DNA of 32,000 nt from Erysipelotrichaceae bacterium (GCA_963663995.1 OY760660.1:1380001-1412000), one strand, 5' to 3'; positions 1,753 to 5,800 are shown, counted from the stretch's first letter. Program-made: numbers and translations. Notes: a model not told the origin generated them from the sequence alone.

Positions 1753-3186
<1,434 letters not shown>

Positions 3187-3259: not shown

Positions 3260-4303
3260 ATGATAAAGTTCACCGAAGTTCACTTCATAAAAAATGATTA
3301 TTCTCAAATCACTAAATACCTTGAGAATGAGATTGTTGTTTTTTTAGGTGGTGAAACTGCTTTAGCAAAGTTGATGCCTAAACTTGAAAAGCACCTGAAT
3401 AATTCAACCTATACAAGAAAAATCTATGGTAAAGAATGTACCCATGCCAATGCTGATAAATATAAGATTGATCAGGATGTTTTAGATGCTACTGTGATTG
3501 TGGCTGTCGGTGGTGGAAAAGCTATTGATCAAGCTAAATATATTGCGAAAGATTTAGGAAAGAAATTATACACAATTCCAACCATTGCATCGACTTGTGC
3601 AGCAACTTCATCTGTATCTGTTGTATATGATGAGTCCCATCACTATGTCGGTGTCATGCAGTATGAAACTGCTCCGGATATCTGTTTTATTCCATTGAAT
3701 ATCATTGCTGAAGCACCTTATAAATATTTATGGGCTGGGATTGGTGATACAATTGCCAAACCCATTGAAATGGATATGACATTAAGACACAGAGAACAAA
3801 GTGTAAATATGCAATTAGCTCGTGCTTTAACACCTTTATGTTTAAGCGAATGTTTAAACTATGGAGAAGAAGCTTTAATGTCTGTTAGAAAACAAGAAGT
3901 TTCATTAGCATTAGAACATCTTGCTTATGCGATTATTGCCAACACTGGCTTTGCATCATGTTTAATGCATTTACGATATGGAACAAATCTTGCTCATTCA
4001 ATACATAACGCATTAGTCAGTTATCCACAAATCCATGATCATCATATCCATGGAGAGATTGTTTCTTATGGTTTATTAGTTTTATTACAAATGGATCATA
4101 ATGAAAAAGTTCATCAAGAGCTCACTGATTTCTATCATAGGATTAAACTACCAACGAAGTTGAAAGACCTAGACATGTCTAATGATAATAAAATGTTAGA
4201 TGAGATTGTTATCGGGACATTAGAAGATGAGTTCTTAGTAGAATCTTGTTATCCAATTACATTTGAGATGGTAAAAGAAGCCTTATTAAAACAAGAAAGT
4301 TAA
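3260..4303 (+). CDS. Iron-containing alcohol dehydrogenase family, glycerol dehydrogenase (GldA)-like oxidoreductase
   Basis: VAVGGGKAIDQAKYIA nucleotide-binding motif, AGIGDTIAKPIE (GldA metal Asp region), and HSIHNAL ... HGEIVSYG His ligands. AAGGGAG SD. Confidence 0.75.
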   Translation: MIKFTEVHFIKNDYSQITKYLENEIVVFLGGETALAKLMPKLEKHLNNSTYTRKIYGKECTHANADKYKIDQDVLDATVIVAVGGGKAIDQAKYIAKDLGKKLYTIPTIASTCAATSSVSVVYDESHHYVGVMQYETAPDICFIPLNIIAEAPYKYLWAGIGDTIAKPIEMDMTLRHREQSVNMQLARALTPLCLSECLNYGEEALMSVRKQEVSLALEHLAYAIIANTGFASCLMHLRYGTNLAHSIHNALVSYPQIHDHHIHGEIVSYGLLVLLQMDHNEKVHQELTDFYHRIKLPTKLKDLDMSNDNKMLDEIVIGTLEDEFLVESCYPITFEMVKEALLKQES

Positions 4304-4348
4304 AAGGAGCAATTGTTGGTTCTACTTAGAGAATCGAGACTTATACAC
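4304..4348. repeat. Left arm of a long imperfect inverted repeat (core 4304-4340, weaker extension to 4348)
   Basis: AAGGAGCAATTGTTGGTTCTACTTAGAGAATCGAGAC matches the reverse complement of 4871-4905 except for a 2-nt indel and one A/G mismatch. The extensions TTATACAC / TTATGCAC also match. Confidence 0.85.
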
Positions 4349-4459
4349 AGATATTTTTTAAAATATAAATATTGATAAAGAGTTTTGAATGAGTAAATAA
4401 AATAAAAACAACAATTCTATTGATTGTCGCTTTAATGAATTAAGTACTAGATAATTTGA

Positions 4460-4585
4460 CTATTTCCCCTTATTATTAATTTCTTGGTTAGCTTCAATGA
4501 TTGCTGACTTGATTACGTACTTTAAAACAATCATTGATATCCCAAAGTAAATGAAGCCTAATACGCTTGAAACAAAAAATTCCAT
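4460..4585 (-). CDS. Candidate 41-aa hydrophobic micro-protein (MEFFVSSVLGFIYFGISMIVLKYVIKSAIIEANQEINNKGK), unannotatable
   Basis: ATG at 4585-4583, 5 nt after a GGGGGAGA SD (complement of 4591-4598). Perfect TATAAT about 45 nt upstream (complement of 4633-4638). Weak A/T-rich hairpin + T-run downstream (4401-4427). One predicted TM helix plus a charged tail. It is below the ORF-track length cutoff. Confidence 0.35.
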   Translation of the reverse strand: MEFFVSSVLGFIYFGISMIVLKYVIKSAIIEANQEINNKGK

Positions 4586-4632
4586 CAATTTCTCCCCCGA
4601 CTTTTATGAATTGTGGTTACTATTTCTTTTTT

Positions 4633-4638
4633 ATTATA
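4633..4638 (-). promoter_or_regulatory. Perfect TATAAT -10 hexamer upstream of the micro-ORF
   Basis: The minus strand reads ...gttaatagacgTATAATaaaaaagaaatag... I found no good -35. Confidence 0.3.
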
Positions 4639-4791
4639 CGTCTATTAACTATTAACAATTTATTAAAATATGTTTTGCAGATTCTTAAATTAGTCAGGGT
4701 ACATTATAACTATCCTTTAAACAAAAAGACACTACATAAAATTTAATATAGTAGAAATCATTTCTCGAAAGAACCATAATTTAGCAAATAT

Positions 4792-4816
4792 AAAACCGAG
4801 CAACTAACTCGGCTTT
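4792..4816 (-). terminator. Probable murQ terminator, located inside the IR-bounded module
   Basis: The minus strand reads AAAGCCGAG-ttagttg-CTCGGTTTT followed by atattt: a 9-bp stem with one G-U pair. Confidence 0.5.
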
Positions 4817-4861
4817 GTTGCATAAAAATGCTTCAATATAATCCATTAAAATATCTTTAAG

Positions 4862-4905
4862 GTGCATAAGGTCCCGATTCTCTAAGTAGAACCCAATTGC
4901 TCCTT
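4862..4905. repeat. Right arm of the long inverted repeat; it overlaps the murQ stop codon
   Basis: The reverse complement of 4871-4905 is AAGGAGCAATTGGGTTCTACTTAGAGAATCGGGAC. See the left arm. Confidence 0.85.
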
Positions 4906-5800
4906 ATTTTTTTATCGCTTGTCTAACAAAGCCATTTGCTTTCTCTAGCTGTTGCTCTGCTTTAATAGAATCACATCGATTAAGAATCATCAGTATTGCA
5001 ACTTTAGGACGATAATCACTTTGAATTAGTTTGTCTTCTGCTTCATGATAATCACAATCAGTTGCTTCCATAATAATTCGTTTTGCTCGATCAACAAGTT
5101 TAACATTTGTCGGATTAACATCTACCATCAGGTTTGAATAAGCTTTACCTAATCCAATCATCGTTGCCGTAGAAATCATATTTAAAACCATTTTTTGGGC
5201 TGTTCCAGATTTTAGTCGTGTAGATCCTGTTAATACTTCTGGTCCCACCGCAACCTCAATCGCATACTCAGCTCGTTTTCCCATCTCTGTTTCTTTATTA
5301 CAAGCGATGGCGATTGTGTGTGCACCTAAAGATTCCGCATAATCAATCCCCCCTAGACAATAAGGAGTTCTTCCGCTTGCCGCAACAGCTATAGCAACAT
5401 CATTCTTATTGAAGTTAAGAGCTTTGAGTTCTTCTATACAAAGTTCACTCGAATCTTCAGCATGTTCAATTGAAGATCTTAACGCATCATCACCACCTGC
5501 CACTAAACCAATAAAATCTGTACTCGATGAAAAAGTTGGTGGTATTTCTGAAGCATCTAAAACCGCTAATCTTCCACTGGTTCCAGCTCCAAAAACAATG
5601 ACTCGTCCATGATTATTAATCTGTTCAATAATCATGTCGACAGCCTTCGCAATAGTTTCAAGTTCATTGTGGACTGCCTTCGCTACCTTCTTGTCTTCCT
5701 CGTTCATCAACGTTACTATCTCTAGACTATTGAGTTGATCTAGATTCATTGACTTGGGATTACGTGATTCTGTTTTTAGTTTGTGTAGTGTATTGTTCAT
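4904..5800 (-). CDS. murQ: N-acetylmuramic acid 6-phosphate etherase
   Basis: SIS-domain protein with LKTESRNPKSMNLD, GAGTSGRLAVLDASEIPPTF and the GSTRLKSGTAQK motifs characteristic of MurQ. Confidence 0.9.
   Translation of the reverse strand: MNNTLHKLKTESRNPKSMNLDQLNSLEIVTLMNEEDKKVAKAVHNELETIAKAVDMIIEQINNHGRVIVFGAGTSGRLAVLDASEIPPTFSSSTDFIGLVAGGDDALRSSIEHAEDSSELCIEELKALNFNKNDVAIAVAASGRTPYCLGGIDYAESLGAHTIAIACNKETEMGKRAEYAIEVAVGPEVLTGSTRLKSGTAQKMVLNMISTATMIGLGKAYSNLMVDVNPTNVKLVDRAKRIIMEATDCDYHEAEDKLIQSDYRPKVAILMILNRCDSIKAEQQLEKANGFVRQAIKK

What the first reader, a model, noticed from the sequence alone, without database searches (positions are those of the whole stretch)
4304..4905. 0.6-kb AT-rich module bounded by a 35-45 nt inverted repeat, wedged exactly between two convergent stop codons
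- The arms are 4304-4340 (AAGGAGCAATTGTTGGTTCTACTTAGAGAATCGAGAC) and the reverse complement of 4871-4905 (AAGGAGCAATTG--GGTTCTACTTAGAGAATCGGGAC). They are identical apart from a 2-nt indel and one transition.
- The similarity continues for about 8 more nt (TTATACAC / TTATGCAC).
- The left arm starts 1 nt after the GldA-like stop codon. The right arm overlaps the murQ stop codon. So the whole intergenic space is one bounded unit.
- The indel breaks any shared reading frame, so conservation is at the nucleotide level (DNA or RNA function), not the protein level.
- The interior is the largest non-coding stretch in the window and much more AT-rich than its flanks. It holds a promoter/SD/micro-ORF/terminator mini-gene and the likely murQ terminator.
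- Possible readings: (a) a MITE-like non-autonomous element with terminal inverted repeats; (b) an invertible segment (inverton) flipped by a recombinase encoded elsewhere; (c) a long-range RNA duplex formed in read-through transcripts, which would be an RNase III substrate.
- I could not identify a convincing target-site duplication, and no recombinase lies in this window.
Basis: seen in the sequence. Interest (0 to 1): 0.7.

Follow-up and report, generated by a model that had tools for sequence, protein, structure and literature searches.

The report
Cargo-carrying mini-transposon inserted in a terminator
The 0.6-kb inverted-repeat-bounded block is a small non-autonomous transposon, related to IS1595-type insertion sequences and carrying a 41-residue membrane-peptide gene, that landed in the hairpin of the terminator shared by two convergent genes; it is a real mobile element of a familiar kind, not a new type of system.

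Summary
The inverted repeat is real (0 of 100 shuffles give it), but each "35-45 nt arm" is composite. The inner 23+ nt (4318-4340, 4871-4893) are the terminal inverted repeats (TIRs) of a 576-bp element (4318-4893). The outer 12-14 nt are an 8-bp target-site duplication (CAATTGTT / CAATTGCT) plus the two halves of a host terminator hairpin.

Removing the element and one duplicate rebuilds AAGGAGCAATTGCTCCTT. Two related genomes have an intact bidirectional terminator hairpin at exactly that gldA-like/murQ junction, so these are empty sites. Both relatives carry the same element elsewhere, one certainly and one from the same sample, each between other convergent genes with its own 8-bp duplication.

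The same TIR bounds at least five other cassettes of 0.6-1.3 kb with different cargo. It also lies directly upstream of a 493-aa transposase that matches the IS1595 model in 23 of 23 relatives.

Seven of eight insertions sit at a terminator hairpin apex. The cargo here is a conserved 41-aa membrane peptide gene of unknown function.

Verdict: the MITE-like reading is right, or more exactly a "mobile insertion cassette". The inverton and RNA-duplex readings are unnecessary. This is a new member of a known kind, of moderate interest.

The parts
4304..4309 (.). Left half of the host bidirectional terminator stem (AAGGAG). This is host DNA, not part of the element.
   Evidence: The reconstructed empty site AAGGAGCAATTGCTCCTT folds as a hairpin. 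Orthologous intact hairpins lie at the same position in L018 and L020.
4310..4317 (.). Left copy of the 8-bp target-site duplication, CAATTGTT.
   Evidence: It is a direct repeat of 4894-4901 with one mismatch. All eight complete family members have 8-bp duplications with 0-1 mismatch.
4318..4340 (+). Left terminal inverted repeat, GGTTCTACTTAGAGAATCGAGAC. Weaker similarity continues to about 4365.
   Evidence: The family consensus is gGtTCTACTtaGAGAATCG. Several metagenome contigs break exactly at this terminus.
4396..4430 (-). Hairpin plus U-run downstream of the peptide gene, its likely terminator.
   Evidence: It is part of the consensus structure of three copies and has one compensatory pair. 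This is read from sequence and is not experimentally shown.
4460..4585 (-). Cargo gene for a 41-aa hydrophobic peptide, MEFFVSSVLGFIYFGISMIVLKYVIKSAIIEANQEINNKGK. Read from the TTG at 4588 it would be 42 aa.
   Evidence: The ORF is listed and was called as a 41-aa gene in a public assembly. It is conserved in L001 (98%) and L017 (85%). Synonymous versus non-synonymous codon changes are 5:1 and 10:7. No Pfam, NCBIfam or PADLOC family matches.
4592..4598 (-). Shine-Dalgarno sequence GGGGGAG, 6 nt upstream of the ATG.
   Evidence: Read directly from the sequence. It is invariant in the three copies.
4782..4816 (-). Inward-facing intrinsic-terminator-like hairpin with a U-run. It now serves as the first terminator met by murQ transcripts.
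   Evidence: Found by the terminator scan. The CCGAG/CTCGG stem is conserved in L001 and L017.
4871..4893 (-). Right terminal inverted repeat, GGTTCTACTTAGAGAATCGGGAC on the minus strand. It extends inward to about 4846.
4894..4901 (.). Right copy of the 8-bp target-site duplication, CAATTGCT.
4902..4913 (.). Right half of the host terminator stem (CCTT) and its T-tract. It overlaps the murQ stop codon and last codons.
4318..4893 (.). The whole 576-bp non-autonomous element.
   Evidence: It is 93.8% identical to the L001 copy and 74.7% to the L017 copy, each in a different genomic context.

Best explanation
Window 4318-4893 is a 576-bp non-autonomous DNA transposon. It has terminal inverted repeats and no transposase, so it is a mobile insertion cassette or cargo-bearing MITE. 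It belongs to a divergent, largely unannotated gut-Firmicute branch of the IS1595 family.

**Insertion event (shown).** It inserted by staggered cut-and-join into the apex of the hairpin of the bidirectional intrinsic terminator shared by the convergent gldA-like and murQ genes. The insertion duplicated 8 bp (CAATTGCT).
- the split halves of the host hairpin;
- the partly palindromic duplication;
- the element's own terminal repeats.

**Mobilisation (inferred).** It is moved in trans by a 493-aa zinc-finger DDE-type transposase. That transposase is found next to the same terminal repeat in other contigs.

**Target choice (inferred).** The choice appears to depend on structure or context, namely an A-tract, a hairpin and a T-tract. 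The duplicated 8-mers share no consensus.

**Cargo and termination.** The element carries a 41-aa single-pass membrane peptide gene with its own Shine-Dalgarno sequence and terminator, under purifying selection. Its function is unknown. My best guess, about 25%, is a type-I-toxin-like or other membrane-active peptide that favours retention of the cassette. The element also carries an inward-facing terminator at its murQ-proximal end. I infer that this replaces the terminator it destroyed.
For: **The same element sits at other sites.**
- L001 (Erysipelotrichaceae MAG OY781039.1) matches the window only over 4301-4898 at 92.5% identity. There it lies between an M20 peptidase gene and an acyltransferase gene.
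- L017 has a third copy between a HAD hydrolase gene and a transaldolase gene.

**Empty sites.**
- L018, which is the same chromosome as L001, has gldA-like and murQ separated by only 17 nt.
- L020/L021, from the same sample as L017, have them separated by 16 nt.
- That spacer is a hairpin scored as terminator-like on both strands.

**Duplications and target structure.**
- Eight independent complete insertions each have an 8-bp duplication with 0-1 mismatch.
- Each reconstructs a hairpin between an A-run and a T-run. Seven of eight are at the apex.

**Link to a transposase.**
- The same terminal repeat directly precedes a 493-aa ORF in L010, L011, L022, L023 and L026-L033.
- Contigs break exactly at the repeat terminus, and identical transposase genes have different flanks.
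- The transposase matches NCBIfam IS1595 (E 1.4e-17) and the IS1/IS1595 zinc domain. All 23 of 23 aligned relatives match, with a best E of 8e-29.
- D157, D246 and H323 are invariant.
- The predicted fold is closest to DDE transposases and integrases.
- IS1595 family features are an 8-bp duplication and an N-terminal zinc finger. Its eukaryotic Merlin relatives have termini starting GG (PMC8101967).

**Age and selection.**
- The element is 93.8% identical between the window and L001, while the flanking orthologues are 75-77% identical.
- The peptide shows 5 synonymous changes to 1 non-synonymous change.
Against: - No transposase and no further copy of the terminal repeat lie in the 32-kb window.
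- The complete relative chromosome contains the exact 19-mer only in its single element. There is therefore no evidence of current mobility in these hosts, and the copy number is far below that of a classical MITE.
- No complete autonomous copy with both ends was captured.
- The transposase scores below NCBIfam's and Pfam's curated cut-offs.
- One of the eight insertions (L001) lies in the stem rather than at the apex.
- The peptide has no known homologue. Only two other clusters were found among 5.8 billion proteins.
- No promoter reached the scan threshold for the peptide gene.
- Terminator function of any hairpin is predicted, not measured.
Confidence: 0.9

Rival explanations
1. It is an invertible promoter segment (inverton). 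A recombinase encoded elsewhere flips the 0.55-kb interior between the two arms to switch expression of the peptide gene or of read-through into the neighbours.
For: There are long inverted repeats about 0.55 kb apart, with a small gene and AT-rich promoter-like DNA between them.
Against: - The repeats are fully explained as transposon ends plus duplicated target.
- The same repeats bound cassettes of 0.6-1.3 kb with unrelated contents, and they abut a transposase gene.
- The only other assembly of this locus has the same orientation.
- No invertase was seen near any copy.
Confidence: 0.03
2. The arms act at the RNA level. Transcripts spanning both arms form a duplex of about 37 bp that is cleaved by RNase III, or that closes the peptide mRNA in an inert form, as the fold-back element does in hok mRNA.
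For: A hypothetical minus-strand RNA covering 4920-4290 folds with the two arms paired (MFE -168.5 kcal/mol, z = -11.8). The two arms change together in L017, from TTAGAG to TGGGAG at both ends.
Against: - A terminator-like hairpin with a U-run at 4816-4792 lies between murQ and the far arm.
- The peptide gene has its own terminator-like hairpin before the left arm.
- Concerted change of both ends is equally expected for sites bound by one transposase.
- Part of the duplex is host sequence that differs at each insertion site, so it cannot be a conserved function of the element.
Confidence: 0.05
3. It is a resident type I toxin-antitoxin or small-protein locus that belongs to this intergenic region. 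The inverted repeat would be its own regulatory architecture rather than a sign of mobility.
For: - The cargo is a 41-aa hydrophobic peptide with a charged tail, a strong Shine-Dalgarno sequence and its own terminator.
- A possible 5'-end helix (ACCCUGAC, 4693-4700) pairs with the Shine-Dalgarno region in two of three copies.
Against: - The locus is absent from the orthologous junction in two relatives and present at unrelated sites.
- The repeat is shared with elements that carry other cargo.
- There is no similarity to any toxin family in Pfam, NCBIfam or PADLOC.
- A toxin-like cargo is compatible with the transposon explanation but does not replace it.
Confidence: 0.02

Closest known systems
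Mobile insertion cassettes (MICs) and MITEs of bacterial insertion sequences, for example MIC231 of the IS231/IS4 family in Bacillus cereus. The MIC231 example is from my own knowledge; several papers using the term were listed.
   Same: It is bounded by the terminal inverted repeats of an insertion sequence and flanked by a target-site duplication. It has no transposase and carries passenger DNA. It is presumably mobilised in trans.
   Different: The parent is an IS1595-type element, not IS231. It is single-copy per genome rather than amplified. Its cargo is a tiny peptide gene.
The IS1595 family, including its passenger-carrying subgroups, and the related eukaryotic Merlin transposons (PMC8101967).
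   Same: It makes an 8-bp duplication, and its termini mostly start with GG. The associated transposase has an N-terminal zinc ribbon and a domain matching the IS1595 model.
   Different: - The transposase is about 490 aa, with a C-terminal extension of about 140 aa.
- It is only 23-26% identical to annotated IS1595 transposases.
- It falls below the curated cut-offs.
- H323 is invariant at the position where, from my recollection of the family motif, the catalytic E, N or H lies.
- I did not find apex-of-terminator targeting described for this family in the papers searched. ISfinder could not be consulted.
IS1272 / TnSha1 (IS1182 family) of staphylococci (PMC4923244).
   Same: It is a cargo-carrying transposable unit that inserts into hairpins, many of them transcription terminators, with no primary-sequence consensus. 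It is usually single-copy per genome.
   Different: TnSha1 cuts in the stem, deletes part of the hairpin and makes no duplication. The element here leaves the hairpin halves intact and makes a clean 8-bp duplication. The transposase family is unrelated.
Insertion sequences that target REP palindromes (PMC1525189), such as IS110-family elements like ISPpu9. From my own knowledge, group IIC introns that target terminator stem-loops are also comparable.
   Same: They prefer extragenic palindromic hairpins between genes, which avoids gene disruption.
   Different: They use different chemistry (DEDD recombinase with bridge RNA, or retrohoming) and different end structures. The IS110 family and the introns do not make an 8-bp duplication.

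Membership tests
Non-autonomous TIR transposon (MITE / mobile insertion cassette) | Terminal inverted repeats at both ends | tested here: met
   There are 23-nt cores with one mismatch between them. A family consensus was derived from 29 distinct ends.
Non-autonomous TIR transposon (MITE / mobile insertion cassette) | Direct target-site duplication of fixed length whose sequence differs from site to site | tested here: met
   All eight of eight independent insertions have 8-bp duplications with 0-1 mismatch, and all eight sequences differ.
Non-autonomous TIR transposon (MITE / mobile insertion cassette) | Empty sites in related genomes | tested here: met
   L018 and L020/L021 have an intact hairpin at the gldA-like/murQ junction.
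Non-autonomous TIR transposon (MITE / mobile insertion cassette) | No transposase inside, and the same ends found on a transposase-encoding element | tested here: met
   The only ORFs of at least 30 aa in the element are 59, 42 and 34 aa. The repeat abuts a 493-aa transposase in L010, L011, L022, L023 and L026-L033.
Non-autonomous TIR transposon (MITE / mobile insertion cassette) | High copy number within a genome (classical MITE criterion) | tested here: not met
   The exact 19-mer occurs only in the one element of the complete 1.96-Mb relative chromosome. It occurs only twice in the window, as the two arms. The source genome itself could not be scanned.
Non-autonomous TIR transposon (MITE / mobile insertion cassette) | Non-coding interior (strict MITE) versus passenger gene (MIC) | tested here: not met
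   A conserved 41-aa ORF with a Shine-Dalgarno sequence shows mostly synonymous change. Sister cassettes carry ORFs of 73-287 aa. It therefore fits MIC rather than strict MITE.
IS1595 family (for the partner transposase and the ends) | DDE_Tnp_IS1595 catalytic domain | tested here: inconclusive
   NCBIfam NF033547 gives E 1.4e-17 at 64 bits against a cut-off of 75. All 23 of 23 relatives match, with a best E of 8e-29. Pfam PF12762 gives only E 0.004. The fold is closest to DDE transposases and integrases.
IS1595 family (for the partner transposase and the ends) | N-terminal zinc-ribbon domain | tested here: met
   The IS1/IS1595 zinc domain matches at E 8e-6 in L011 (26.3 bits against a cut-off of 28) and matches in 23 of 23 relatives, with a best E of 9e-11. 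C49, C72 and C75 are invariant and C52 is nearly invariant.
IS1595 family (for the partner transposase and the ends) | 8-bp target duplication | tested here: met
   Measured. The family rule is taken from PMC8101967.
Inverton (invertible DNA switch) | Both orientations present in a population, and a cognate invertase | not testable with these tools
   No reads are available. The two assemblies of the locus have the same orientation. I did not search the window for an invertase.
Type I toxin-antitoxin (for the cargo) | Small hydrophobic toxin related to a known family, plus a cis-antisense RNA | tested here: not met
   The peptide is hydrophobic but has no Pfam, NCBIfam or PADLOC match. No Rfam family matched. 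An antisense RNA cannot be tested without RNA-seq.

The most novel reading that the evidence does not exclude
This cassette is one member of a previously unannotated clade of IS1595-type transposons in gut Firmicutes, and that clade has four unusual properties.
- Its transposases are about 490 aa, have a C-terminal extension, and show invariant D, D and H residues.
- It recognises the apex of intrinsic-terminator hairpins by structure.
- It brings its own inward-facing replacement terminators.
- It shuttles cargo ranging from a 41-aa peptide to whole type I restriction-modification systems.

In this reading the 41-aa peptide is a new type-I-toxin-like retention module that keeps a single-copy, transposase-less cassette in place.
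Probability: 0.2. Interest if true: 0.6.

Novelty: new member of a known kind. Interest (0 to 1): 0.38.

Why it matters
- It explains an odd-looking long inverted repeat without invoking a new mechanism.
- It shows how a palindromic target can hide a target-site duplication and inflate an apparent repeat.
- It flags a poorly annotated transposon clade, whose members are mostly called "hypothetical protein". This clade seems to use terminator hairpins between convergent genes as safe landing sites and to move small accessory genes between Erysipelotrichaceae species.
- If the terminator-apex preference were confirmed experimentally, it would be a useful case of structure-directed DDE transposition.
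- For genome annotation it adds three items: one small-peptide gene, one mobile element, and one disrupted host terminator now replaced by an element-borne one.

Tried and rejected
- **Rfam.** There was no match at gathering thresholds over the whole window. The permissive scan of 4200-5000 gave only a chance-level hit, AgrB at E = 1.
- **Peptide families.** Pfam, NCBIfam and PADLOC found nothing for the peptide. Most sister cargo proteins also had no match.
- **Exact look-up.** The 42-aa form found nothing. The 41-aa form found only the source-like contig.
- **Other collections.** The viral-contig scan for the repeat gave zero hits. A plasmid search with the whole unit gave no match.
- **Promoter.** The scan gave no convincing promoter for the peptide gene. 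It found 3 weak sites against 4.5 expected by chance.
- **Complete autonomous copy.**
  - The right ends of L022 and L023/L024 were not found within the DNA held.
  - None was found in L026-L029 either.
  - L025 has a diverged end and an IS3-type element next to it.
- **L002.** It carries two direct copies of the arm. I could not find a matching opposite end or the other half of the target.
- **Ideas dropped on reading the sequence.** I considered a group II intron end, a tRNA or tmRNA fragment, a CRISPR repeat, and an att site for a site-specific recombinase. The att idea fails because the 8-bp flanking repeats differ at every site.
- **Structure covariation.** An RNA consensus fold of three copies has too few sequences to support or reject Shine-Dalgarno sequestration.

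Full report
**1. The observation**

- The repeat finder reports inverted arms 4318-4340 / 4871-4893 (23 nt, 96% complementary). It also reports an outer pair, 4289-4315 / 4894-4920.
- The 23-nt core with up to 3 mismatches occurs only at these two places in the 32-kb window. None of 100 dinucleotide-preserving shuffles gave a match.
- The gldA-like ORF, an iron-containing alcohol dehydrogenase with NCBIfam glycerol dehydrogenase as best hit, ends at 4303. The murQ ORF matches the N-acetylmuramic acid 6-phosphate etherase model at E 3e-125 and has its stop codon at 4904-4906.
- The interior is 27% G+C against roughly 33-38% for the neighbours.
- It is the longest stretch without a sizeable ORF.

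**2. The same block sits elsewhere with different neighbours**

An exact scan of one genome per species with a 19-mer from the arm found two loci.
- In L001, a complete 1.96-Mb chromosome of an Erysipelotrichaceae MAG (OY781039.1), BLAST aligns the window only over 4301-4898, at 92.5% identity.
- There the block lies between an M20-type peptidase gene and an acyltransferase gene, which are again convergent.

A protein search with the small interior ORF found only two other clusters among 5.8 billion proteins.
- One is the L001 copy.
- The other (P0002, 85% identical) lies in L017, between a HAD-type hydrolase gene and a transaldolase gene.
- The three copies align end to end.

**3. Empty sites**

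Homologues of the GldA-like protein led to the orthologous junction in relatives.
- L018 is the same chromosome as L001. There the gldA-like and murQ genes are 17 nt apart.
- L020/L021 come from the same sample as L017. There the genes are 16 nt apart.
- The spacer is a hairpin: AAGACGCAATTTGCGTCTT in L018 and AAGACGCCTTGGCGTCTT in L020.
- In both, the hairpin is followed by a T-run on each strand. It is scored as terminator-like in both directions.

In the window, deleting 4318-4893 and one copy of the 8-bp repeat gives TAA-AAGGAGCAATTGCTCCTT-ATTTTTTT. This is the same architecture at the same position.

The block is therefore an insertion into the shared bidirectional terminator of the two genes.

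**4. What the "arm" really is**

- Left side: AAGGAG | CAATTGTT | GGTTCTAC...
- Right side: ...GTAGAACC | CAATTGCT | CCTT

The 8-mers are a direct repeat with one mismatch, that is, a target-site duplication. Their CAATTG core is palindromic and the flanking AAGGAG / CTCCTT are the two halves of the host stem. The duplication therefore aligned as part of an inverted repeat and produced the apparent 2-nt indel. The element proper is 4318-4893 (576 bp).

**5. A family**

A metagenome scan gave eleven more loci. With the arms and flanks tabulated, there are eight independent complete insertions: the window, L001, L003, L004, L005 (= L006 = L012), L007, L009 and L017.
- Every one has an 8-bp duplication with 0-1 mismatch.
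- The eight duplicated sequences share no consensus.
- Every reconstructed empty site is a hairpin between an A-run and a T-run.
- Seven insertions are at the apex. One (L001) is in the 5' stem.
- Thirteen of fourteen independent flanks show the upstream A-run.

Sizes range from 576 to 1,267 bp and cargo differs between cassettes:
- small predicted membrane proteins of 41, 73, 76 and 93 aa;
- a 144-aa protein;
- a 287-aa alpha/beta hydrolase.

None contains a transposase.

**6. The partner transposase**

- In L011 and L010 the same terminal repeat is followed, after a short inward hairpin, by a 493-aa ORF.
- It matches NCBIfam "IS1595 family transposase" (E 1.4e-17, 64 bits, cut-off 75). It also matches the IS1/IS1595 zinc-binding domain (E 8e-6). 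Pfam hits are weak.
- A database search found 54 related clusters of about 490-510 aa, almost all unnamed.
- All 23 that I aligned match the IS1595 model, with a best E of 8e-29. The invariant residues include the CxxC pairs, D157 (in a ...CDE... motif), D246 and H323.
- An AlphaFold model (mean pLDDT 81) is closest to the ISCth4 transposase and to retroviral integrases.
- Annotated IS1595 transposases on plasmids are only 23-26% identical.
- Several metagenome contigs begin exactly at the first base of the repeat. Identical transposase genes have different upstream flanks. This independently fixes the element terminus and indicates more than one insertion site.
[quoted passage not shown] Its eukaryotic relatives (Merlin) have termini starting with GG (PMC8101967). 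All of this fits.

I did not capture a complete autonomous copy with both ends.

**7. Age and selection**

- The window and L001 copies are 93.8% identical over AT-rich, mostly non-coding DNA. The flanking orthologues of the two hosts are 74.9% (gldA-like) and 76.8% (murQ) identical.
- The element is therefore younger than the split of the hosts and sits at different sites. It was acquired independently or transferred.
- Within the peptide gene, codon differences are 5 synonymous to 1 non-synonymous against L001 and 10 to 7 against L017. This argues that the peptide is a real product.

**8. Interior anatomy (read on the minus strand)**

- After the right repeat comes a terminator-like hairpin with a U-run (4816-4782). 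It faces incoming murQ transcription and is conserved in all three copies.
- About 180 nt of AT-rich DNA follow, with no promoter passing the scan. A TATAAT lies at 4708-4703.
- Then come the Shine-Dalgarno sequence GGGGGAG (4598-4592) and the 41-aa ORF (4585-4460).
- A hairpin with a U-run follows (4430-4396). It has one compensatory pair among the three copies.
- The consensus fold also pairs ACCCUGAC (4700-4693) with the Shine-Dalgarno region in two of three copies. That would be typical of a type I toxin mRNA, but three sequences cannot establish it.
- The peptide has a hydrophobic N-terminal two-thirds and a charged tail, read directly from the sequence. It matches no known family.

**9. 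Consequences for the host (inferred)**

- The insertion leaves both coding sequences intact but separates the two halves of their shared terminator by 0.6 kb.
- murQ transcripts now meet the element's inward terminator.
- gldA-like transcripts enter the element antisense to the peptide gene. They meet only weak terminator-like structures.
- Most transposase-proximal ends in the family carry a similar inward hairpin, AAGAGGTT..AACCTCTTTT.

**10. Rivals**

- An inverton is not needed and has no support.
- A long-range RNA duplex would form if a transcript spanned both arms. However, terminator-like hairpins intervene, and a third of the duplex is host sequence that differs at every site.
- A resident toxin-antitoxin locus is excluded as an explanation of the repeat by the empty sites. 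A toxin-like cargo remains possible.

**11. Comparison with known systems**

The element works like a mobile insertion cassette of an insertion sequence, and its ends and partner enzyme place it in the IS1595 family, though distantly.
- Insertion into terminator hairpins has a precedent in IS1272/TnSha1 (IS1182 family). That element deletes part of the hairpin and makes no duplication (PMC4923244).
- Other precedents are REP-targeting insertion sequences.
- I found no description of this preference for the IS1595 family in the papers searched. ISfinder could not be consulted.

**12. Verdict**

It is a new, unannotated member of a known kind of element. Interest is moderate (0.38), mainly for the consistent terminator-apex targeting and the diverse cargo of the clade.

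Noticed in passing
L022 2727-7781; L023 3427-8482; L024; L026-L030: In three transposase lineages (72-82% identical to the L011 enzyme), the terminal repeat and transposase gene are followed directly by type I restriction-modification genes. These are a CLB_0814-family gene with hsdM, hsdS and hsdR, or a convergent hsdR-hsdS. No second terminal repeat was found in the DNA held. The autonomous form may be a transposon of 9 kb or more with a restriction-modification system as cargo.
   Followed up: partly
L027, L028, L030, L033 position 1; L031, L032, L026: Several independent metagenome contigs start exactly at the first base of the terminal repeat (CGTTCTAC...). Identical transposase genes have different upstream flanks (TTTATG versus ...CAAGCT). 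This is the pattern expected for a repeat present at more than one site in those communities.
   Followed up: partly
L002 3552-3574 and 4046-4068; 4389-4483; 4552-5034: In a contig labelled Ruminococcaceae, the arm occurs twice in direct orientation, 494 bp apart, and the first copy lies just after an A-run. Downstream are two 47-nt tandem copies and a 160-aa ORF that reminded me of ToxN/AbiQ-type toxins. Pfam and PADLOC gave no significant match, and no opposite end was found.
   Followed up: partly
L019 1376-3761: In another relative (GldA-like protein 81% identical), the same gldA-like/murQ junction holds a different 2.4-kb insert. It contains an ABC-F-type ATPase gene, a RelB antitoxin gene and what looks like a split RelE/ParE-like toxin gene. 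The terminator hairpin is gone, the gldA-like C-terminus is altered, and none of the terminal repeats is present. The junction seems to be a recurrent insertion site.
   Followed up: partly
window 1810-3186 versus L018 1574-2950: The GH1 6-phospho-beta-glucosidase gene is 89.8% identical in DNA between the two hosts. The adjacent gldA-like and murQ genes are only 75-77% identical. This could reflect stronger constraint or a recent exchange of that gene.
   Followed up: no
window 4693-4700 with 4592-4600 (minus strand): ACCCUGAC lies just downstream of a TATAAT box (4708-4703) and can pair with the GUCGGGGG that overlaps the Shine-Dalgarno sequence of the peptide gene. The helix is kept in the window and L001 copies and partly broken in L017.
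   Followed up: partly
L025 8628-10000: In a Candidatus Faecousia MAG, a 69%-identical transposase is preceded by a diverged end (GGTTCAATTTAGAGATTTTGGAC). An IS3-type element (HTH_Tnp_1 plus rve genes) lies immediately upstream.
   Followed up: no
L017 3695-3717 and 4246-4268: Both terminal repeats of this copy carry the same variant (CGCTCTACTGGGAGAATCG instead of GGTTCTACTTAGAGAATCG). The TGGGAG variant also occurs at the transposase-proximal end in L023/L024. The two ends therefore co-vary, possibly tracking transposase subtype.
   Followed up: no
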